Shown here in pieces: positions 1-53,088 of a DNA stretch of 64,000 nt. The DNA lies in NCBI GenBank assembly GCA_003344405.1, contig NOWV01000118.1:62001-126000 (forward strand), given 5' to 3'. Under the pieces are notes generated by a model that worked only from the letters and a program-made list of their open reading frames with translations, was not told the DNA's origin and did not search any database. The stretch is from Trichoplax sp. H2 (Eukaryota). The translations under genes and the position numbers were made by a program. Within the stretch, counting starts at the first letter, position 1. Each line of letters opens with the position of its first letter.

Positions 1-2596
1 AAGAAAAGTGTTTTAGCATCCATTAGAATATTGACACACAAATGCGCAGATACTGATTCTATTATGTTATAAATTAATTTATAAACGTGGTTATCACATT
101 GCAAGTAAACTATTTCAACTGGAATTATTGTCGGATCTTTTAGACTTTTGATTTTTGCATGACACGGTAAAAATACTTTTTTTTTCAAGACTACATTCTC
201 CTATGATTTGTGTACCGTATGCAGTTACTACAGAATGGAACATCGATACGGTAATTTCTTATATTAGAGCAGTTGCTTACCAAGATCATCACCATCGCGT
301 CGAGCTATGGTCAAAAATAAAATATGTATTAGTATTTTCTTGTATGATGAGAATCATAGTATCTCATTCATGATGAATAGATATCGCTATTTCCTCTTCG
401 GCAATGCATTGACTCAACGTACTATAGTACAGTATTGGCAAAGGTCTTTTGTAAATTTGTTGACGGAATACTTTAACAATGTTTAGGATGAAAAGTAACG
501 GATAGCTTTTGTATCTACTGTACTGTACAGTACAGCTACAGTGAATAATATCATTACAGGAGCAAATATAGCTTCATCAGAAAGACACGCTAAATTACAG
601 TAATAGATGAATCATTAATTATTACAGCGATTAATATTCAATTAGAAACATATTATTGAATGCTGTACTTACAGCGAGGAAGAGCTTTATATTTGGCCAT
701 AGCACAAGGCAATAAGGAGGCAAGGCAAGCTGCGTATATTGATAAGAAGTAAGAATTATACATATTGCCTATGTCCATTTGATGCAAAGAAGCCTACAAA
801 GTGGCGGAATCCAAATGGAAACTACAACTCTACAATGTGCTCGATGACGTTGAATTATGAATGGATGATACTACCCAAGATTGATTCATGTCTGAAATTA
901 AATATACTTGTACTTGTACTCGTAGGCATGTTGTCTGCTAACGACTTGAGCTCTCCATTGATCATGATCATTTGAGCGAGCGTCAGCAATCGCTATTGGC
1001 TAGCTAGTGCAAGGATTGCTTTCAAGGAGAATACAGACAGTATGCACTATCTTGGCTGATGTTTTACCTTTCCATTGGAGATGGTTCATCTTAGGATAGA
1101 GTCGTAACAATATTTGCTAGTATTAAAAGGACAAACCCATCCGCTGCAAGATCGACTGTTGTTGAAGTGCTTTTCCCTTAATCGTTGGCAAAACCAACTC
1201 ATTCCCATCACTACTATACGGTGTCCAGAACAGTCCGACCTGGCACTATCCTGTACTGCGCTGCAAGTGGAGAGAGTGCGCAAAATCGGTACGACTTACC
1301 GACTGGTACCGGCGCTAGTCTACTGCGATACTGTTCATTGGTCAAGCGTCCCATTGACTCGTCCACTACCAATGTTAACCTACTGTATGATGCGCGATAG
1401 TAGCCGTTGATAGGCAATCTTGGCCGCTTTGTTTTCATGTCTAAATATTTTTTTTTTTTTTGCATGACAGGCTGATCACTGAAGATTTTCTATTTACTTA
1501 TCACAATATCTTCCGTTAGGAAGATGGCAAGCAAGTTCAATATGTACTCCATTGATATTTACAGGTAGGGTTGTGCTGTCGTTGGAGTAGGCCAAGTAGT
1601 GCGTGTCTCTTGTTTCTTTCTACAAGTGCTACAGTATCCATATCCATTCAAGGTTACAAGGATGGCCGAATAGGCGTTTTTCTTGTAAATTGATCAATTG
1701 TCTGCATACTTGATCAAATTGCCGTAAAAAAGAAATACCGTGTGCTGTTGTAACCATGATAATCATGTGCAATGCAGTCTGTATCATTACTGAATTGGCT
1801 TTTGCTACGTGATTCTTGTAACAATAGTTTAATCAAGGCGTAGACTGGATTATCATTCTCATTCTTCTTCTTTTTTCTATTTCTGTACTCGTACTGGATA
1901 TCGTTTCTGCCGTTCAATCAATGCAATCGGTTTAAATCATCGGTTTAATGATGTTATGATGATTGGATGAAAATCATTTAAACTGCTCCTCTTGTGCACT
2001 TTACTCACTACAGTATAGCAAAAGACATGGTGCATTCAAGTATTTGCTTCTATCTTGGTCACCATGTCATGAACAAGTGAATAAAGTTGGACATGTTGGT
2101 CGAAGAAGCGATGACGAAAAAGAATTTTTGATTTGCAGACAATACCCCGCAGTACTATGGATATTTGTTACTGTTTGCAACAAGAGATCGACAGCGCTAT
2201 GGCGATACTTGTTCCTTACGTCCGATGACTACGATAGACTGTACTATGGCGTTGTGTATGCAAATAGAGCGGCAAAGGACATGCTCTCCATAGATCGGGT
2301 TCATCTTACTGTCAAGTAGGTCACATTGCTACAATATGCAACACTTACCGTAAGCAAATAACATTAGCTGTGAGTATGCCATAATTGTGGAATGTTGGAG
2401 TCAATTTTGCCACTGGCTCTGGTTGGTGTTTTGGCGTCAATAGGACGAGCGATCTAGTTATCCAATGGAGACAAAAGTAGCATTGATATTGACACTAGCA
2501 TAATTGTCCATTCAAGTCAAAAAGATGACAAAATAGAGCAGTAGACACAATATACATGGATAGTGGTTGCTTACCAGTTGGCTACTAGCTTGTGTG

Positions 2597-4722
2597 AGAA
2601 AGTTGGTTTATTTTGGCAAGTTTTTCCAGGCCTACATGAATCCAGATGAGTCCAATAACAACTAGCTGCAAGCCAGCGGCGACTATTTCTCGATGTCGGG
2701 TATGGGTGGATGTGGTCACTGCGATCAGCGTACTGTACTCTACAGTATATCGATTGATACTGTCCGTGTTGTGAAAACTTGCTCCAGTACAGTCCATTGT
2801 ACTGTACAGCGGCGACTCCTTGGATGTTCACTGTAGCGTGTACACTGTAAACGTACAGTACAGTACAGTATACTGTACTGCAAACGTGAGATCAGTTCGG
2901 TTCAATCTCTTTATGATCTACTGTACACTGTACAGTACAGTACAGTACGACAGTACAGTACAGTACAGTACAGTACAGCACTGTACCGTACTGTACACTC
3001 AATGCACTGTACTCTACTGTACTGTACTTTGCACTGATCATGAGCGTGCGCACTGTACTGTAACGGACAGGACAGAGAAGTGGTGGGGGAAAAAAGGCTT
3101 TACAGTACAGTATTTCCTTCAATGGATTGGATTGATTGACTGGGCAGCAACCTACTTGTAACAGGATAGTGTATGATGCCTGCCAAAGTGTTGTAAAATG
3201 CAGTATGCTGAATGAAGAATGCTGCTGATGATTGTATTCAATATATTTGTAATAAACCAAGGCAAAAATAAGAATTCAATTCTACTGGATATGATGATCA
3301 ACAACTTGAAATCAACAATACAGTACAGTACAGTACACAAAGGCACAACACCACCATCTCTCTTGACATTGTATTGTAGATGCCAAGATAAACACTGTAC
3401 AGTACAGTACAGTACTGTACTGTACTGTACTGGTCTGAGAAAGGTTCGGTTGGGTTCAATACCTTGATGGTCTAGACTCTAGATGTACTGTACACTGTAG
3501 TCCCTGTCCACATCCATGTCAGCACTACAGTATACTGTACAGTACATACTACGATCGTACTCTGTACAGTTGTCCGTCTGTTCGCTACTAGGTCCCAATC
3601 GTCATTTTACCCCTGAGAGAAAGTAAAATGGCAGTCAAAATGAGTGATGCACGACACACATTGACTGCTTTCATCATTTTTATTGACAGAGGATTGAATG
3701 GTTGNNNNNNNNNNNNNNNNNNNNAGAAAGTTGGTTTATTTTGGCAAGTTTTTCCAGGTCTACATGAATCCAGATGAGTCCAATAACAACTCGCTGCAAG
3801 CCAGCGGCGACTATTTCTCGATGTCGGGTATGGGTGGATGTGGTCACTGCGATCAGCGTACTGTACTCTATATCGATTGATACTGTCCGTGTTGTGAAAA
3901 CTTGCTGCAGTACAGTCCATTGTACTGTACAGCGGCGACTCCTTGGATGTTCACTGTAGGGTGTACTGTACACTGTAAACGTACAGTACAGTACGTACTG
4001 TATACAGTACAGTACGACAGTACAGCACTGTACTGTACACTCAATGCATTGTACTCTACTTTGCACTGATCATGAGCGTGCGCACTGTACTGTAACGGAC
4101 AGGACAGAGAAGTGGTGGGGGGAAAAAAGGCTTTACAGTACAGTGTACTGTACTAGTACAGTATTTCCTTCAAAGGATTGGATTGATTGACTGGGCAGCA
4201 ACCTACAGTACTTGTAACAGGATAGTATATGATGCCTGTCAAAGTGTTGTAAAATGCAGTATGCTGAATGAAGAATGCTGCTGATGATTGTATTCAATAT
4301 ATTTGTAATAAACCAAGGCAAAAATAAGAATTCAATTCTACTGGATATGATGATCAACAACTTGATATCAACAATACTGTACACAAAGGCACAACACCAC
4401 CATCTCTCTTGACATTGTATTGTAGATGCCAAGATAAACACACTGTACTGTACTGGTCTGAGAAAGGTTCGGTTGGGTTCAATACCTTGATGGTCTAGAC
4501 TCTAGATGTACACTGTAGTCCCTGTCCACATCCATGTCAGCACTACAGTACAGTATACTGTACATACTACGATCGTACTCTGTACAGTTGTCCGTCTGTT
4601 CGCTACTAGGTCCCAATCGTCATTTTACCCTTGAGAGAAAGTAAAATGGCAGTCAAAATGAGTGATGCACGACACACATTGACTGCTGTCATCATTTTTA
4701 TTGACAGAGGATTGAATGGTTG
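2597..4722. repeat. Direct duplication of ~1.0-1.1 kb (2597-3704 and 3725-4722) either side of a 20-N gap; probable uncollapsed haplotypes or recent tandem duplicate
   Basis: Both copies begin agaaagttggtttattttggcaag and end ggattgaatggttg. They differ by a few substitutions, by 5-bp CAGTA/CTGTA indels and by one larger deletion in copy 2. Confidence 0.9.
3705..3724. other. Assembly gap (20 N)
   Basis: Run of n characters. Confidence 0.99.
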
Positions 4723-5399
4723 GTTTAAAAGGTTTCTTTCATCTCAACGTCCTCTCTTTGGATTCATTAAAAGGGTCTCTGCCCATCGTGGAACCCCTCC
4801 CTGCGCTGGTGAAGATTCGGCGTCCTTGTTTACTACTGTACTGTACTGTACAGTATGGACAGTCCAGTGCTGTCTGCGGTACAGTACAGTACAACCACAA
4901 CACCGTCCTGTACTGTAGTAGTAAAATCATCAACATGATCGATCATCGATGCCACCCAGAGCGATTTGCTCTTTCCTCGAGTGTTGACTGTAAGGGCAAG
5001 GAAAAGAAAATAGGAATAATATTTTTTCTAGCGCTTTCAATCATAGACTGCATCATGTGTAGTGTAGCGCCAACAGTGCTTAAACGGAGCAGTATCGGTC
5101 AGTATGGTGAAGAAGAAACGGTCAGAGCAGAACTGATGTCAGCGAACTCGAAGCCATTGCATGGCTTTACGGTAACTACATGACCGGTGTCCGCTGTATC
5201 ACTGTACTGTACAGTGTACAGTGTACAGTACGTAGCCTAGTCCACTCTGACTACCTATCGTATCATCATGCTACCGGACCGGACCGGAACGGCCAGTCTC
5301 GTCCGCAGTACGTTACGGTACCATTTGGCTCCGTTGATTGACTGTAGGAGTGTAGGCTGACCGTTACCGTTGGTCAACTCACCACGGCGTGGAGGACCG

Positions 5400-5860
5400 T
5401 TGACGCATTTGCAGTACTAGACGTTGGTATTGTACACTGTACTGTAGAGTCCACTGTCTTACAGTACTGTACTGTAACGCATTTGTACTAGACGTTGGTA
5501 TTGTACAGTATGTACTGTACAGTACTGTAGAGTCCACTGTCTTACAGTACAGTACTGTACTGTACTAGAGTCCCTGTCTTATAGTACTGTACTGTACTGT
5601 ACTGTAACGCATTTGAAGTACAGTACTGTACTGTACAGTACAGTACTAGACGTTGGTATTGTACAGTGTACTGTAGAGTCCACTGTCTTACAGTACTGTA
5701 CTACAGTCCCTGTCTTACAGTACAGTACAGTGTACTGTACTAGAGTCCCCTGTCGTGTCGTACTGTACTGTACTGTACAGTACGAGAGTCCCCCGACGTT
5801 GGTACTGTACAGTACTACAATCCCCTGTACTGTAGAGTCCCTGTCTTACAGTACTGTACT
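5400..5860. repeat. Minisatellite of two alternating units (tagagtcc(a/c)ctgtct and aacgcatttg..tagacgttggtattg) interleaved with TACAG/TACTG runs
   Basis: agagtcc units recur about 7 times (near 5446, 5529, 5567, 5675, 5742, 5785, 5834). gacgttggta recurs about 4 times (near 5420, 5491, 5649, 5795). Confidence 0.8.
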
Positions 5861-8071
5861 GTACAGTACTGTATTGTACTGTACCAGGGTCGACTGTCAT
5901 GCCCTACAGTACAGTACAGTACAGTCCCCCCCCCAAGTTGGTACTGTACTACAGTGCGATCGCCGCCTACAACCACTGGCTATCCAGGCACCAAAGCAAG
6001 CGCGTCAAGCGATACTGGTGGGTGAAGCGAGTGACGTTGAGTCTTCTTTCTTCCAAGCTCTTCAAGCTCTTAATTGATTTCCAATTCAATTCCGCCGTGG
6101 CAACCATCGCAAAAATCAATTCTTCCATCTTTCTTGGTGTCTATTTGCTGGGAAAAATTGCATCGATTTTATCGTTGATGATCCAGTGGTGAGTGATTGC
6201 ACTAATATAGTATCCATTGATTGGCCAGGCCAAGAGGAACTATCCTAAGCATCATAGCCATCATCCAATCTGCAGGCCTACGTCTTGGTCCTGCTTGTTT
6301 GTTTGCAAGAGGATCATTTTCAATCCAAAGTCAATCAAACACATTTGGATTAAGCGATCGAGGTATCCAATCGTTCAGCTTGACATCATCTTCATCTTTT
6401 TCAATTTCCACTTGGCTAAGGTAATACAGGAAGAAGAGAGACAGATAAAATTGACCAAAGTCTGCTTGGGAGAATCTTCCATTACCGTCGTTGGAGAAAC
6501 CATCGATCCAGTTCCATTTACAACGTTCTACTCCACTTGTAGGATACGGTAATCCATTGCAGAGTAGACTTCTTTTTTCTTTTTTTTTCTACTGTACTCG
6601 ATCCTTTTGCCAGGAGAATATATTATTCCCTCCCCATGCCTACTTCCAATTCATGTTGATACAAGACCATCATCAATTTTTTCTCCCCTTCTTGATGGTC
6701 ATTGCAACATCATTCAATTCACCAACATCCAATCATCATCAACTTCCTTTCGCTTTTTATGTCGCTACGCTAAAAGATCATCCTAACCAGTGGAATGGAA
6801 GAAAATCAACAACTGCCATCAGACTGGCGATGCTTTCACTCATCAAGTCATCACTGCAATCACTTTGTCTTGTCTTGATTTGATCATCAAGCATTGACTC
6901 AGTGCAACCACAAATCTTCCAATACTTGTTCAATTTAATAGCATCCAGCAAGAACGGATCGTTTCCCCTTCTCCAATTCTACCTTTTCAATATTCCAATC
7001 ATCCATGGAGAAGTTAGTCTAGGTGTAAAATACTCGTAGCATTGCAACAAATCATCCCATTTCTCATCACCACAGGCCACCAACTTGCCTTACCTGTAGA
7101 TCCATTTCCATACTTGCTTGATCATTGAATCAGCTTCGATCAGCCTTATTATACGCCACCAATGACAATGAGTCTAACCTAAGCTATAGTAAGTTTGGGG
7201 GAAAAGCCATTTTCTCATTTCTTGTATTTTAAGACACTTTTTGAATTCAACTGATCGATACAGTCGATCAATAAGTTCATGCCATTGAAGAACGGCTGTA
7301 CTTTATTTTTTCCTGTTCTTACCGCATTATTTTCACAAAAAGAATCGGAAGGAAAGTCGAGTAGACTACAGCTTTACCGGTAGGATGAGTAGTCAGTGAG
7401 TGGCTATCCTTTTCATTTTGTCAATCATTTTATCATATCGTTGAAGAATGAAAAATAGCCATGGCTATTTTCCATCACCCTACAAACGTCTTGTTAATCA
7501 TACCCAACCAACCAGTAGAGAGATGATCGCTTTGCAAATTGCAACAAACTAATTCAAGTTCTCATCGTGCCGACAGGATGATGTACAGTGTTAATCGCTA
7601 GAGTAATACTATGGCCAGTATTACTCTAGCGTTGTATAATGAACTTTCTAGCTTCATTAAAATATCCTAATCCGGTATTATGGCCTTTCGTAATGCGCCA
7701 TCGATGGACAGTCATTCAGCCATCGCATATGTTGCTATAGGCTTGCGATCAATACATTGGGGATAGTGTTTTCAACGTGGATCGTCTACAGCAAGAATCA
7801 AGCTAGAATGTAGACTATTCCAACATGCAAAAGTAATCTTGTCCACCTAGTAATCACCATGTTGCATACAGTTGAATAAACGGCTACATTGGTCAACATC
7901 TGTGCCTCCTAGTCGATGCTACTTAAATCCATTGAAAACTACCCTACATCATTCTAGACTTAATAATTTATTGATGCTTTCTATTCCGTTGTAAAGTCAA
8001 GAGGACAATGTAAACTGATGTTAATGCTATATCAATAATAATAATACTTTATATTATTACAGGCAGCCAAA

Positions 8072-15525
<7,454 letters not shown>

Positions 15526-24039: not shown

Positions 24040-24450
24040 TAAATTGGGCTAATAACGCTACAATTGCATCACTGATTTGAAATTGCTATCGTAAAACCAA
24101 GCTATTGAGGAAGGACGTTATCACGAAAAATGGATATAGAATGGAGGATAGTTTAGCTTAAATCTATTTAATCTTATATTACAAATTAGGTTAATATCGC
24201 TACGTTTCATCGCTAACTTGAGATTGCTATCCTAAACTATAGAGAATGGATATTGGTATCTAGAATAGATATGAATGGAGGATGATTTAGCTTAAATCTA
24301 TTTAATCTAATAATACAAACTAGGCTAATAGCGCTACATTTCATCTCTGATTTAGAATTGCTATCGTAGACTAGCGAGAAGGGAAGTTTTCATGTAGGTT
24401 GAATAAAGAATGGAGGATTGTTTAACTTATTAAATCTATTTAATCTGATA
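24040..24450. repeat. Tandem repeat, 3 copies of ~135 bp
   Basis: gaatggaggat...tttagcttaaatctatttaatct near 24139, 24273 and 24408, each preceded by attgctatc. Confidence 0.8.
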
Positions 24451-26277
24451 ACACAAACAGTTTAATTGTCATCATCAATGAGTCCTGCAGTATTTGACTT
24501 TGATGAAATAACCCACTTAGGCCTAGTATAGATTTGAGCATGATCAAAGAGCGATTATATCATTAATTAAATTATAGATAGAGAATTAATCGACCACCCA
24601 GCTCATGCTATTTGGCCTACTTGTTTACTGACTTGGAGAATAGTTCACCGTGTTCTATCAGTTTGTGGTACTTACTAGCTGTAAACGAAATCATGATTGA
24701 GCGTTCCATCATGTTGCTTAATGCACTAATAAGTTGGAAACTGGCTTTTCGGGAGGGCAAGTTTAAAAAATATAAGTACAGTTAATTAATAGTTCCTGGA
24801 AAAGGATGCAACAGTTTAAACTAGTCCATCTATATTAACTTACTCATAGACTATAAGTGGAAAGCAGAATCTTGTTAAACAAGTTAAATGGAAGCTATCC
24901 CCCTCCACTTAGTGCAGAAAATAATCGCAGCGGGTTCAAAGTTCAACCATGCAATCGTTCAAGGATAATCTCAAGTAGAGCATTTAATAGCCATCCTTTA
25001 AGTTCGACATTGTTAAATGATGGAATCAAGACAGGAAAGTAGCAAATACTAACTTGTAATATCTAGCCAATGCTGATTAATTTATTGCTTTCATTATTTG
25101 TTAGCAAACGCTTAGTCAGAATTGAGTCAATTCTGACTCCATCAACGAAAACTGATCCATGGAATTCTGGTCAATTCCTATCAGTTAGGACTAGCAATTA
25201 TGATCACTTTAATAATCCTACTTTGCATTACTAATGATGATATGATCGCTGCTGCTATTTATAAAGTATAAAATCTCATATGCAATAAACTCGTGGATGA
25301 TTAATTATCCAAAATATCAAAAAAGAGGATCAAAAGTAAGAAAATTAGCGTGAAGGAGGACAATAATAATGCACCTAGCCAGCCGACTTTCAGCTTCGAA
25401 TTCCAGGATTAAACCTTACCTTCATAAAAAAAATAGTAATTCACATAGTGACAATGAAGAATTGTAGATCCAATTCGAACAATTTAGCGAGTGCAAGTCA
25501 TGAGAATTACTTGAATGAAGTTACCTTAACAAATAAGATGGATAACGGTTAAAGGATAACGATGAAAAACTATTGACTAATAACTAGTAAACAGTAATGA
25601 GTCACTATTGACTAATGCATAACTCAATAAGAAATCATAAATTATAATTTATGACCAATTAAAATCTTAAAATGAATTACAAATGGCGATGAACAGTTAA
25701 TTTTAATGAAAAGGCATGGTGAACAATCCAATTATCCGTGAGGATAGTTCCTATTCCTGGAAAACTAGAAATTGCTGTACTTCATAATAGATTTAAGTGT
25801 ATAAATAACAACTGTCGTATTGAAAAGCTGCCCTATCTGTTCTACTATAAGCTCTTCGTTAATAATGATCCATTTCAGTTTGTCGACCTAATCAATGAAA
25901 ATATTAGGCTTCGTAGTGTCTCATTCTTTTTTTCTAATATCAATTTTATATACAGCAGCTTGCACACTCATTTCTATGCACAAGGCGTTATTGTTTGCTA
26001 AATTAAATTGAATTCATTTTCAACCATTACTTATCCTCTTACCATTTACGATCAGAGTAAACTATCTTTAGAATAGAAAAAAGATGAATGATATTAATTA
26101 TCAATTTATAATGAATTGTCCTAGAATAATTTTGAATCTTGCTATTCCAGCAGGATAGGTCTCACTATCCCCAATCCGTCTTCTATCACTTATACCATGT
26201 ATTATCCAAGCCATGAAACATAAACCCATCTCTCCTCCACCTGCCCATAACTCCATGTCATAGCAAGAATTTCAATC

Positions 26278-36260: not shown

Positions 36261-37397
36261 TTATTCAGTTATGATTGAATGGGCTGAAGTAATTGATCTC
36301 TTATCTTTAGCACGTTTATTCTGAAACCAAACTTGGACGACCCTTAAATCTAAACCAACCTTGGTAGCAATCATTTCTCTGGTAATTCTACTTGGTCTCG
36401 GTTTAATTCGATAGACCGAATTAAGCATTTTTAACTGCTGTTGTGTTATAGATGTTCGAGGTCGTTTAAGATTGGGATGATGTAGCTGAAAATCTACAAA
36501 AAAAATTGTGATAAATTGGGTAATCCATATCTAATCAATATGTAGAAAATCTTTAGATCAGGCAATATTTTCAACATTTTAGCAGCTACTTAGCTTACCA
36601 TCGCTACACATTATGGCGACATCATAATCTTCTTTACAAATTGGTTTACCTTCATCCGAAATGTAATATTTATCGCCTACTTTAAATTGTCTACTACATA
36701 CTATACAAAGGAGGCAGTTAATATGATAGCAAGAGCCATGAAGTCGGTAAACCATCTCATCCGGTAAGATACCAAGATTGCAACCTTGACATTTACGTCC
36801 AAATCGTCTATTGCAATTTCGTGTACCAGTTGATACCAAGATAGTATGGGAGGGTTACGAATAGCATCATAGTTCCAATGGGAGTATTTAAAAAATTATT
36901 TAATATATTAAATTCTTCAAGAAATCTTCATATAATTACGTAAATATTTTTCTTGGAAATACAGCTAATCTTGCTTTGAGTGTTAAAAATAATCAACCAT
37001 CTAAAGTTGTATGAGTATAATCTAGCATGACATCATTATTGGGTACTAGGAATTTAAAATTCATGCTATACTAATCGACGCAGTATCAGGAAGAGGATGA
37101 TAGTTTACAGGTAAAAGTTGTAGTCTCTCATGAAATAAATTACTAAGTAGGGATATCATAGTATCAATTATTTCAAAATGAATCAATATCCCTCTATTTA
37201 TAGAGAATGACTGGTTAGTTTACGTTACCTGTAGTAATGCATGCTGCAATAGATTGACTCTTCCTTTACAAAACATTTTCCTTCGAGGTTTTTACCGCAA
37301 TCTATACATGAAATGCATTTGCCGTGCCATAATTGATTATCCATTTCGTAAATGTTCCTATCGCGAATTTCTTCTTGGCATTTAAAACACAGCAATT
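36261..37397 (-). CDS. Lhx3/4: LIM-homeobox transcription factor, Lhx3/4-like (core exons; 5' exons uncertain, possibly extending to ATG at 38639)
   Basis: Exons 37397-37229 (LIM1 CFKC...WHGKCISCIDC...CSMHY), 36807-36599 (LIM2 RFGRKCQGCNLGILP...YHINCLLCIVC...CKEDY) and 36493-36261 (homeodomain [57 protein letters not shown], stop TAA at 36261-36263). KRPRTxIT, [13 protein letters not shown] and the short LIM2-homeodomain linker favour Lhx3/4 over Lhx1/5. Confidence 0.88.
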
Positions 37398-38944: not shown

Positions 38945-40025
38945 TGTTAAAGTCTACGATCCTAGTTCACAAAAGTTGCCAAAACTTTAAATACACTAGA
39001 AGAAGCAAATAGCTTTCAGAAAATTAAATATTAGCCACTACAGCTATTTTAAAAGATTAAGAATTCTAAAAATTGCCAAATTCTTAATAGACTAAAATGA
39101 GGAGTATGTAGCTTTCAGAAAACTAAATATTAGGTATCAAAACTGTTTTTAAAGTCTTTGATCTTAGTTTTCAAAATTGCTAAACTTTGATGGACTAGAA
39201 AAAGATGTAAGCAATATTCAGGAAGCTAAATATTAGCTACTATAACTGGTTTAAAAGTCACTAATTCTGCAGCTGTTCTCAAAATTACCAATCTCTTAAT
39301 GGACTAGAAGGAGTATGTAGCTTTCAGAAAGTAGAATTTAGCTACTACAATTGATTTTAAAGTCATCAATCCTAGTTTCTAATAGCGTCAAACTATGAAT
39401 GGACTAGAAGAAGTATTTAGCTTTCATAAAACCAAGTATTCGCTACCACAGCTGTAATTAAAAAGTCTTTGATTCTAGTTATCAAAATTACCAAACATTT
39501 AATGGACTAGATGAAGTACGTAGCTTTCAGAAAATTAAATGTTAGCTTCTGCAATTGCTTTGAAGTCTTCGATTTTAACTATCGAGTTATCAAACTTTTA
39601 AAGGCCTAGAAAAGGAAGTGCTGTACGCTCATTTTGTCTTTAGATATATAGAAAAAGAAAAATATGACTTAAACTAACGTGTAAATACTCTACTTTATAC
39701 CAACATACAAGAATTATCAAAGCACGTGGTAATAATTCTTATATAATTTGCCATCTAAAAACTTAAAGCATTAATAAACATACCATATGTAGCTTTCAGA
39801 AAACTAAATAATAGCTACTATAATTGCAATACAATGTCTTCGATTCTAGTTCTCAAAATTATCATATTTCTAACGGACTTAAAAAAGCATATAGCTTTCA
39901 GAAAACTAAATTATTGCTATTACAGCTGATTTAAAAATCATCGATTCTAGTTCTCAAAATTGTCCAAAAAACTTTAATGGACTAGAAGAAGCACGCAGCT
40001 TTCTGAAAACTAAACTTTAGCTACT
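38945..40025. repeat. Tandem repeat array, ~100-105 bp unit, ~9-10 diverged copies, upstream of Lhx3/4
   Basis: The unit tagctttcagaaaactaaatattagctacta ... gattctagttctcaaaatt ... aatggactagaag recurs near 39010, 39109, 39212, 39318, 39418, 39521, 39790, 39892 and 39996, with an interruption at about 39620-39780. Confidence 0.88.
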
Positions 40026-51774: not shown

Positions 51775-52300
51775 AACGTAAATTAGAAATTTTACTGGTG
51801 CTAATTGATGTAGGGTACATGTCTTTAGTAGCTCTGGCATATTGCTCCTTTAGCCATAATGGGTGCTATTAGTGTTTTTGACATTTACCTACTTGATATA
51901 CGGTAAGGTATCTCTAGAGTAAATTAGAAATTATACTAGTGCTAACTGATATAGAGTACATGTCTTTACTAGCTCTAGCATATTGCTCTATTAGCCATGA
52001 TAGTGTTAATAGTATTAATAGTGTTTTAACATTTATATCTTTGATATAAAGGATCTCTAGTATAAATGAAGAATCATACCGGTGCTAACTGATATAGAGC
52101 ACATGTCTTCACTAGCTCTAGTATATTGTCTTGTTAGCCATGATGGATGTGAGGAGTGTTATTGACGTTTTATGACGTTTATCCATTAAATTAAAGATCT
52201 TTAGTGTAAATTAGAAACTGTACCGGCGCTCCCTCATGCCCAGCACATATCATCAGTAGCTCCAACAGATTGTATCATTACCATAGTGCTGTAAGCGTTA
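51775..52300. repeat. Tandem repeat, ~4 copies of ~143 bp
   Basis: taaattagaaat ... ggtgctaactgatatagagtacatgtcttt ... tagctct ... atattg ... tagccat recurs near 51779, 51920, 52063 and 52207. Confidence 0.85.
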
Positions 52301-53088
52301 ATAGTATAGTTAGAATTTAGATACCTGGATAAAAGTGATCTTTCGTCCTCTACATTAAATGTGTAGTTCGATATAGATTTCGATCACAGAAAACGCTAGG
52401 TAAACTCCTAAACACTTCAATAATAATTATTAGTATTCTACGATAAACAATTATTAAATTGAGTTTCATTGCCAGCGAATCGCCTCGTGTAAGATAATAA
52501 GAACAAAGTTGTACTGTGAATACCAACAACGGCGTTACTATATATTAAAGTANNNNNNNNNNNNNNNNNNNNAGGAGTGTTATTGACGTTTTATGACGTT
52601 TATCCAATAAATTAAAGATCTTTAGTGTAAATTAGGAACTGTACCGGCGCTCCCTCATGTCCTGCACATATCATCAGTAGCTCCAACAGATTGTATCATT
52701 ACCATAGTGCTGTAAGCGTTAATAGTATAGTTAAAATTTAGATACCTGGGTAAAAAGTGATCTTTCGTCCTCTACATTAAATGTGTAGTTCGATATAGAA
52801 CAGTTTAAGCATATGGGCTTGGATCAATAAATTCCCGAATTCTCTATACTAAATTTTTATAGACCTTAACCGGAAAAGCTCGCAGATCCTGTACTAAGTT
52901 CGTGGAGATATTTCAACAATCACAGAAAACGCTAGGTTAACTCCTAGACACTTCAATAATAATTATTAGTATTCTACGATAAACAATTATTAAATTGAGT
53001 TTCATTGCCAGCGAATCGCCTCGTGTAAGATAATAAGAACAAAGTTGTACTGTGAATACCAACAACGGCGTTACTATATATTAAAGTA
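52152..53088. repeat. Duplication across a 20-N gap (52152-52552 vs 52573-53088); probable uncollapsed haplotypes differing by a ~115 bp indel
   Basis: Both copies start aggagtgttattgacg and end atatattaaagta. About 52800-52915 is present only in the second copy. Confidence 0.88.
52553..52572. other. Assembly gap (20 N)
   Basis: Run of n characters. Confidence 0.99.

What the first reader, a model, noticed from the sequence alone, without database searches (positions are those of the whole stretch)
2730..5955. A transposon-footprint record: nested TA-CAG-TA / TA-CTG-TA scars saturating a ~3 kb hotspot
Seen: the pentamer runs are bounded by TA, come in both orientations (CAG and its reverse complement CTG) freely mixed within a run, and are scattered singly through unique sequence. 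Known: Tc1/mariner elements with CAG termini (e.g. Sleeping Beauty) duplicate a TA target and on excision leave TA-CAG-TA or TA-CTG-TA. Inference: each scar creates a new TA target, so repeated insertion and excision builds a mixed-orientation pseudo-microsatellite that records many historical transposition events at one locus. Slippage probably amplified some pure runs afterwards. The remaining ~57 kb shows only sporadic copies, so targeting would be highly local. No intact element is visible in the window.
Basis: partly seen in the sequence, partly recalled or inferred. Interest (0 to 1): 0.85.

Follow-up and report, generated by a model that had tools for sequence, protein, structure and literature searches.

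The report
Trichoplax ACAGT repeats as transposon scars
This stretch is a dense cluster of the already known five-base ACAGT repeat of the tiny animal Trichoplax, and comparing its two gene copies suggests that the repeat units are scars left by a cut-and-paste jumping gene, an origin I did not find proposed in the papers I searched.

Summary
106 of the window's 165 TAC(A/T)GTA heptamers lie in 2731-5948. The object is not new: it is the (ACAGT)n microsatellite of Trichoplax (Wang et al. 2010), which this scan has filed twice before on other DNA of this genome. New here: 2597-3704 and 3725-4722 are two haplotypes of one locus. They differ mainly by 5-bp units at TA sites, including three sites that are empty in one allele and filled in the other within unique sequence. 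The unit's central base is A 43, T 44, G 2, C 1, while the units are otherwise barely decayed. In 198 (ACAGT)n loci from other organisms, arrays are almost all single-orientation (switch fraction 0.041, against 0.32 here). Outside the hotspot, isolated TACWGTA is the most over-represented heptamer pair (59 observed, 11.9 expected). This rejects plain slippage as the origin and matches the canonical Sleeping Beauty/Tc1-type excision footprint. However, no element with CAG ends could be shown, because no genome is held. Published surveys call Trichoplax transposons inactive. The indels are unpolarised. The extreme concentration at one locus is unexplained. Verdict: footprint origin about 0.5, and it is testable.

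The parts
2731..3704 (.). Hotspot part 1, haplotype A: arrays and single TAC(A/T)GTA units at many TA sites
3705..3724 (.). 20-N assembly gap between the two haplotype copies
3725..4722 (.). Haplotype B of the same segment (allele of 2597-3704). It carries 19 heptamers, and 16 of 60 collapsed TA sites are occupied.
   Evidence: A single contig (X1 record 3) with the A-type SNPs runs on into 4723-5228.
2741..2747 (.). Single TACAGTA in haplotype A at a TA that is empty in haplotype B (B: 3865-3875)
4204..4210 (.). Single TACAGTA in haplotype B at a unique TA (AACC|TACTTG) that is empty in haplotype A (A: 3147-3158)
3015..3026 (.). Two TACTG units in haplotype A at a TA that is empty in haplotype B (B: 4051-4064)
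3319..3335 (.). Three CAG units in haplotype A where haplotype B (4375-4381) has one CTG unit
4723..5400 (.). Hotspot middle part, with arrays at 4834-4893 and 5200-5231 and GC-rich unique sequence between them
5400..5955 (.). Degenerate larger tandem repeat in which nearly every TA carries an array. Homologous TA sites of different units carry different A/T strings.
516..542 (.). Small separate array (tta) outside the hotspot
8045..12112 (+). Exons of an HR1-repeat gene downstream of the hotspot (8045-8332, 11186-11671, 11783-12112). The hotspot lies about 2 kb upstream of the first recognisable exon.
   Evidence: Pfam HR1, best E 2.8e-23

Best explanation
The region is a promoter-proximal cluster of the known Trichoplax (ACAGT)n repeat. 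Its elementary event is the insertion of five bases, C-A/T-G plus TA, at a TA dinucleotide. The best explanation is the canonical excision scar of a cut-and-paste DNA transposon that duplicates a TA target and has 5'-CAG ends (Tc1/mariner/pogo type).

Mechanism: on excision, each flank keeps TA plus a 3-base CAG overhang. The two overhangs pair with an A-A mismatch in the middle, and repair resolves it to A or T at random. Every scar adds one more TA, so repeated hits build arrays with random A/T strings, and replication slippage then lengthens the pure stretches.

Shown here: the TA-bounded unit, the A/T-only ambiguity at 1:1, allelic presence or absence at unique TA sites, isolated units all over ordinary sequence, and strong regional concentration.

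Inferred: that a transposon is the agent, that the allelic differences are insertions and not deletions, and why this locus is hit about 35 times more often per TA site than the rest of the window.
For: 1. Unit structure. 87 of 215 TA-to-TA intervals in the hotspot are CAG or CTG, enriched 41- and 53-fold over the rest of the window.

2. Central base. It is A 43, T 44, G 2, C 1, and inside GTAC-x-GTAC it is A 29, T 30, C 1, G 0. Every other single-base variant of the unit has at most 5 copies, apart from TACAGTG with 14. The units are therefore barely decayed yet sit at 1:1 A/T.

3. Control arrays. In 198 (ACAGT)n loci from other organisms, the switch fraction is 112 of 2712 (0.041) and the minor form is 6.8% of units. 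Central G/C variants number 176, against 278 A/T flips, of which 87 come from the two overlapping loci of one palindrome. Here the figures are 15 of 47 (0.32), 49%, and 3 against 43.

4. The two haplotypes. Of 20 unit-bearing TA sites, 4 are the same, 9 differ and 7 are occupied in one allele only; 3 of those 7 lie in cleanly aligned unique sequence. Collapsing the units cuts indel events from 11 to 4.

5. Outside the hotspot. TACAGTA/TACTGTA ranks 1 of 8192 heptamer pairs under Markov-1 (59 against 11.9, z 13.6) and 2 under Markov-3. T..A flanks hold 59 of 179 ACAGT cores. The bases outside the TAs are at background (G at -1 in 10 of 56, C at +1 in 6 of 56), so these are not decayed GTAC-phase repeats.

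6. TA-site occupancy is 38 of 121 in the hotspot and 58 of 6779 elsewhere.

7. The runs are not carried by a common repeat. About 3700-4000 contigs per run (1690 in X8) land on them, with unrelated flanks (loose-end agreement about 0.4).

8. The SB canonical footprints are TACAGTA and TACTGTA (preprint 10.1101/659086, abstract and passages).

9. Tc1-, Tigger- and mariner-like coding fragments exist in T. adhaerens: 11 rows in Wang et al. 2010, supplement 2.
Against: No element with TA-flanked CAG ends was shown. There is none in the window, and no genome is held.

Published surveys report few and apparently inactive transposons. Wang et al. 2010 give 0.13% TE content, and their three intact mariner/Tc1 ORFs lack inverted repeats. 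Kamm et al. 2018 state that transposons are not currently shaping the two genomes and that most DNA transposons are Ginger (passages).

Of the six minor SB footprints only TACTA is enriched (11 copies, 2.6-fold).

No target-site consensus appears around 56 isolated units, though power is low.

The roughly 35-fold regional preference and the published promoter association are not what I recall for Sleeping Beauty, whose integration is near random.

Pure runs of up to 4-6 units need slippage as well.

The allelic differences are not polarised, so precise 5-bp deletions between the two TAs would look the same.

The 7-bp CAGTG/CACTG units (8 in the hotspot) have no firm derivation.
Confidence: 0.5

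Rival explanations
1. It is an ordinary microsatellite. Under this reading (ACAGT)n grows and shrinks by replication slippage, A/T differences come from point mutation, and the repeats and isolated TACWGTA copies are kept near promoters by selection as binding sites for a dimeric factor.
For: Pure runs exist (aaaa, tttt). Several allelic differences are simple length changes. One base change flips a unit. Wang et al. 2010 report 54% of the loci within 1 kb upstream of genes and propose a binding site. A preprint finds ACAGT associated with chromatin-contact patterns (passages).
Against: 38 separate TA sites in 2.2 kb each carry their own array, and chance seeds cannot supply that many. Filled and empty alleles occur at unique TA sites. 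A/T is at 1:1 while G/C variants and all other substitutions are rare. Control arrays elsewhere stay single-orientation, with G/C variants about as common as flips. Selection on a binding site does not by itself produce exact 5-bp insertions.
Confidence: 0.15
2. It is break repair with templated insertion. Under this reading the palindromic arrays are fragile, and breaks are repaired by polymerase-theta-type end joining (a mechanism I recall, not tested here) that copies a few nearby bases in either orientation, so that arrays seed new units around themselves.
For: It explains both orientations, the local self-reinforcement and the sharp hotspot. The clean allelic insertions lie within about 60 bp of other units.
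Against: Isolated units far from any template form the most over-represented heptamer pair in 58 kb of ordinary sequence. Inserted pieces are almost always exactly one unit, bounded by TA, whereas templated insertions are expected to vary in length and register. After collapsing the units only 4 indels remain.
Confidence: 0.15
3. A host-encoded TA-specific activity without a mobile element is responsible, for example a domesticated Tc1/pogo-type transposase that still cuts at sequences resembling its old ends and leaves the same scars or duplicates units at open promoters.
For: Published surveys find intact single-copy mariner/Tc1 ORFs without inverted repeats and very few transposons. It would explain the promoter concentration and the lack of elements.
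Against: There is no direct evidence. Creating a scar at a unit-free TA needs element ends to supply the CAG bases. Only 5 transposon-derived transcription factors are predicted in Trichoplax (passages).
Confidence: 0.12

Closest known systems
(ACAGT)n microsatellite of Trichoplax adhaerens (Wang, Zhang, Meyer, Bao 2010, Biol Direct 5:18, PMC2871265)
   Same: It is the same motif and the same genome lineage. The paper reports 5,624 perfect loci, the commonest microsatellite, mostly upstream of genes. The hotspot here lies upstream of an HR1-repeat gene.
   Different: The paper treats it as a simple repeat and possible binding site. The words excision, palindrom and slippage do not occur in it. 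It does not describe the TA-bounded unit, the A/T-only ambiguity, the isolated units or the allelic 5-bp insertions.
Canonical excision footprint of Sleeping Beauty and other Tc1-like transposons (TAC(A/T)GTA)
   Same: The 7-bp product is identical, with TA on both sides and A or T in the middle.
   Different: No donor element is known here. The scars are stacked into arrays at one locus. SB's minor footprints are mostly absent. Integration would have to be strongly regional.
Ordinary (ACAGT)n arrays in other organisms (198 loci from metagenome and genome collections)
   Same: They have the same pentamer and the same tandem form.
   Different: Those arrays are single-orientation: switch fraction 0.041, and 6 of 105 loci with 10 or more units have a minor share of 0.3 or more, two of them being the two overlapping loci of one long palindrome. 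The Trichoplax locus is at 0.32 and 49%.

Membership tests
Trichoplax (ACAGT)n promoter microsatellite (Wang et al. 2010) | Tandem ACAGT/ACTGT pentamers in a Trichoplax genome | tested here: met
   TRF arrays of period 5. The organism comes from earlier scan notes. The motif and its abundance are in the paper.
Trichoplax (ACAGT)n promoter microsatellite (Wang et al. 2010) | Location within a few kb upstream of a gene | tested here: inconclusive
   The first recognisable HR1 exon starts at 8045, 2.1 kb downstream. The transcription start was not mapped.
Tc1/mariner-type excision footprint | TA on both sides of a 3-base remnant of the element end | tested here: met
Tc1/mariner-type excision footprint | Central base ambiguous between A and T only, near 1:1 (mismatch repair of CAG/CAG overhangs) | tested here: met
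   A 43, T 44, G 2, C 1. Controls elsewhere are not so.
Tc1/mariner-type excision footprint | Empty and scarred alleles of the same TA site | tested here: met
   Three clean sites. The direction of change is not polarised.
Tc1/mariner-type excision footprint | A source element with TA-flanked 5'-CAG ends and a DDE/D transposase in the genome | not testable with these tools
   No genome is held. There is none in the window. Only coding fragments are listed in Wang et al., supplement 2.
Tc1/mariner-type excision footprint | Accompanying minor footprints (TACATA, TATGTA, TACGTA, TACTA, TAGTA, TATA) | tested here: not met
   Only TACTA is enriched (11 copies, 2.6-fold); the others are at or below background.
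Slippage-only microsatellite | Length changes confined to existing runs, with one orientation per locus | tested here: not met

The most novel reading that the evidence does not exclude
A very low-copy or host-retained Tc1/pogo-type transposase has for a long time been writing TACWGTA scars preferentially into open promoter DNA of placozoans. On this reading the commonest microsatellite of this nearly transposon-free animal genome is a fossil record of transposition, and the scar arrays were then co-opted as promoter or chromatin-architecture elements.
Probability: 0.2. Interest if true: 0.85.

Novelty: new variant of a known kind. Interest (0 to 1): 0.6.

Why it matters
The ACAGT repeat has been an unexplained oddity of the Trichoplax genome since 2010, and it is now being linked to chromatin organisation. 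If its units are excision scars, a genome said to have almost no active transposons would carry tens of thousands of records of transposition. Microsatellite birth from transposon footprints would be a new route to repeats. The arrays would also map where the element could land, in effect a natural chromatin-accessibility record. The idea is directly testable with existing placozoan assemblies.

Tried and rejected
Searches and tests that gave nothing:
- A whole-genome search was not possible, because no genome is held.
- Inter-strain indels from laid contigs: the tables were swamped by thousands of contigs from other repeat loci and were cut short (90 indel rows not shown), so I could not list or polarise indels between the two organisms.
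- A loose search for inverted repeats was dominated by the runs themselves (152 hits). The strict version gave 26 against 32 in a direct-arm control, so nothing.
- A target-site logo around 56 isolated units showed no clear consensus.

Ideas rejected:
- P-nucleotide or hairpin-type palindromic additions (hAT, Transib): the units inserted at unique sites are not reverse copies of their flanks.
- A 5-bp target duplication left behind after precise excision: it would copy the local sequence, not TACAG.
- Arrays being part of a dispersed repeat: the flanks are unrelated.

Literature searches that found no footprint proposal:
- Trichoplax + transposon + footprint: 10 papers hold the terms, and none of the 9 listed is on this by title or abstract start.
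- ACAGT + Trichoplax: 45 papers, 20 listed. I opened three of them: two concern the repeat and one holds the letters only in a primer. The other titles are unrelated.
- 'excision footprints' + microsatellite + Tc1: 0 papers.

Earlier scan notes by sequence gave nothing.
Full report
WHAT IS THERE

The window is AT-rich (about 30% GC; the first 8 kb are 37-45%) and has very few long ORFs (3 of 150 aa or more). No whole genome is held for it. Earlier notes of this scan place the genome in the placozoan Trichoplax.

Between 2731 and 5948 lie 106 of the window's 165 TAC(A/T)GTA heptamers. TRF reports many period-5 arrays there. Among all 64 TA-NNN-TA heptamers only CAG and CTG are frequent in the region (52 and 54; the next has 4).

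THE OBJECT IS KNOWN

- Wang et al. 2010 (PMC2871265). I read parts 1-2 of 4 of the main text, ran a term search over the whole text, searched supplement 2 and read all of supplement 4. They reported (ACAGT)n as the commonest microsatellite of T. adhaerens, with 5,624 perfect loci against 302 for the next pentamer. 54% of the loci lie within 1 kb and 85% within 5 kb upstream of genes. They proposed a transcription-factor site. The words excision, palindrom and slippage do not occur in the paper.
- A 2025 preprint (10.1101/2024.11.14.623548, passages only) recovers ACAGT de novo as a motif associated with chromatin-contact patterns in Trichoplax.
- This scan found the same arrays twice before on other pieces of this genome and filed them as the known repeat (e1-7272261 and e1-7272381).
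- Three searches found no paper that proposes a transposon-footprint origin.

A NATURAL EXPERIMENT IN THE WINDOW

Segments 2597-3704 and 3725-4722, separated by 20 N, are two copies of one segment. Laid contigs show that they are alleles and not a tandem duplication. One 1,158-base contig (X1 record 3) carries all seven A-type SNP variants and continues into the unique sequence 4723-5228. A contig of the other organism label is a mosaic of A- and B-type variants. This fits the shared, divergent alleles described for H1 and H2 by Kamm et al. 2018 (PMC6057997, passages). A second N gap at 52553-52572 likewise separates two haplotype copies.

The two alleles differ by 24 mismatches and 11 indel events. 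Collapsing TA(CAG|CTG)TA to TA removes 53 units and leaves 4 indel events. No control triplet pair removes more than 4 units.

Of 20 TA sites that carry units in either allele, 4 are identical, 9 differ in content and 7 are occupied in one allele only. Three of the seven lie in cleanly aligned unique sequence:
- 2741-2747, filled in A, against the empty site within 3865-3875 in B.
- 4204-4210, filled in B, against the empty site within 3147-3158 in A.
- 3015-3026, two units in A, against the empty site within 4051-4064 in B.

The control haplotype pair at 52 kb (about 400 bp) has roughly ten SNPs, one 1-bp indel and one 114-bp indel, and no unit events.

GTAC is a palindrome, so the 'orientation' of a unit is only its central base. 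One A-to-T change flips it, and mixed orientation alone therefore proves little.

The sharper test is which bases occur at the central position. In the hotspot (one haplotype plus the rest) they are A 43, T 44, G 2, C 1. Inside GTAC-x-GTAC they are A 29, T 30, C 1, G 0. Every other single-base variant of the unit has at most 5 copies, except TACAGTG with 14. The units are therefore hardly decayed and yet sit at a 1:1 A/T ratio. Mutation cannot give that, so the ambiguity belongs to the generating process.

AN EMPIRICAL CONTROL

Together 198 loci were stored.

| Measure | 198 control loci, pooled | Trichoplax hotspot |
|---|---|---|
| Orientation switches per adjacent unit pair | 112 of 2,712 (0.041) | 15 of 47 (0.32) |
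| Share of the minor form | 6.8% | 49% |
| Central G/C variants against A/T flips | 176 against 278 | 3 against 43 |

The control figures are and the hotspot figures. Of the 278 control flips, 87 come from the two overlapping loci of one long palindrome. Of the 105 control loci with 10 or more units, only 6 have a minor share of 0.3 or more. Ordinary (ACAGT)n arrays therefore behave as slippage predicts, and the Trichoplax locus does not.

ISOLATED UNITS

In the 58 kb outside the hotspot, TACAGTA/TACTGTA is rank 1 of 8,192 heptamer pairs under a first-order model (59 observed, 11.9 expected, z 13.6) and rank 2 under a third-order model (26.2 expected). The T..A flanks are specific: 59 of 179 ACAGT cores, or 33%, against 11.7% from composition. 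The bases just outside the TAs are at background (G at -1 in 10 of 56, C at +1 in 6 of 56), so these are not eroded GTAC-phase repeats.

Per TA site, occupancy is 38 of 121 in the hotspot and 58 of 6,779 elsewhere, with sharp borders. The arrays are not carried by a dispersed element. About 3,700-4,000 contigs per run (1,690 in the fourth run) pile onto them, raising depth from about 60 to about 13,900, and their flanks are unrelated (loose-end agreement about 0.4).

MECHANISM

The elementary event is a 5-bp insertion of C-W-G plus TA at a TA. That is exactly the canonical footprint of Sleeping Beauty (TACAGTA/TACTGTA; preprint 10.1101/659086, abstract and passages). In that chemistry, 3-base CAG overhangs on both flanks pair with a central A-A mismatch that is resolved either way.

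Each scar adds a TA, so repeated hits build arrays with random A/T strings, and slippage lengthens the pure stretches. The observed switch fraction of 0.32 lies between 0 (slippage only) and 0.5 (random scars only). In the 5.4-5.95 kb part, homologous TA sites of a larger degenerate repeat carry different strings, for example att, aatt, at, aaAt and attat after CTGTCTTA.

A rough calculation of my own (inference): a scar density of about 0.5% of TA sites at mutation-decay balance needs only about 1e-4 to 1e-3 scarring excisions per genome per generation. A single low-copy element could supply that.

WHAT SPEAKS AGAINST IT

- No element with TA-flanked CAG ends was shown. There is no transposase domain in 58 of the 66 ORFs of 70 aa or more (I left out 8 that overlapped others), and no inverted repeats above control.
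- Wang et al. list 11 Mariner/Tc1 rows (best hits to nematode and fish Tc1, Tigger1 and mariners), but these are coding fragments without ends. They call the three intact ORFs single-copy and without inverted repeats.
- Kamm et al. conclude that transposons are not currently shaping these genomes.
- Of SB's six minor footprints only TACTA is enriched.
- No target consensus was seen.
- The indels are not polarised.
- The roughly 35-fold regional preference is not what I recall for SB. Other TA-duplicating families cannot be excluded; from memory, ISL2EU has 2-bp duplications.
- The 7-bp CAGTG/CACTG units (8 in the hotspot, 1 outside) could be CAG plus a trimmed CTG, or a GT duplication. They hint at CAGTG ends only weakly.

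RIVALS

- Slippage plus selection fails on the 38 independent arrays, the filled and empty alleles, and the A/T-only pattern.
- Templated break repair explains local growth in both orientations, but not the isolated units or the exact unit length.
- A host-retained transposase-like activity is possible but has no direct support.

VERDICT

The footprint origin is the best-supported mechanism, at about 0.5. I did not find it in print, and it can be tested directly on existing placozoan assemblies.

Noticed in passing
window 3705-3724 and 52553-52572: Both 20-N gaps separate two haplotype copies of the same segment (2597-3704 against 3725-4722, and 52152-52552 against 52573-53088). These look like assembly artefacts of a heterozygous clone and inflate local repeat counts.
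   Followed up: yes
window 52800-52918: A 114-bp stretch is present in one haplotype copy and absent from the other. It is not TA-flanked and has no obvious inverted ends.
   Followed up: partly
window 5270-5405: A cluster of ACCGG/ACGG/CCGT motifs: 10 ACGG|CCGT in kb 5001-6000 against 0-6 elsewhere. It may be the 'ACGG' motif that a preprint assigns to a transposable element, which Kim et al. 2025 describe as a Mutator terminal repeat at Trichoplax loop anchors. Identity not tested.
   Followed up: partly
window 2881-2919, 3432-3478, 4455-4501: A 39-bp block is present only in haplotype A, between two arrays. It loosely resembles a 47-bp block that both haplotypes share downstream. Meaning unknown.
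   Followed up: partly
window 24129-24458 and 38966-39547: Two larger tandem repeats: a 134-bp unit x2.4 and a 103-bp unit x5.7 (TRF).
   Followed up: no
window 27355-60653: Seven LIM-domain exons on both strands, plus a homeodomain exon at 36264-36530 next to a LIM exon at 36582-36854 (minus strand). This suggests a LIM-homeobox gene and further LIM genes.
   Followed up: no
L115, L128, L129, L132, L133, L158, L180, L188, L189 (one MAG) and L119, L140, L143, L166, L173, L174, L185, L186 (another MAG): Two assemblies labelled as bacterial MAGs each contribute many contigs with long (ACAGT)n arrays. Probably eukaryotic host DNA was binned by mistake. L132/L133, two overlapping loci of one contig, hold a long palindrome of about 36 units followed by the opposite form.
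   Followed up: no
L084 (287-512), L073 (1308-1526): Two metagenome contigs carry mixed A/T arrays with ACCGG-type neighbours, much like the Trichoplax hotspot. They could come from placozoans or from another organism with the same process.
   Followed up: partly
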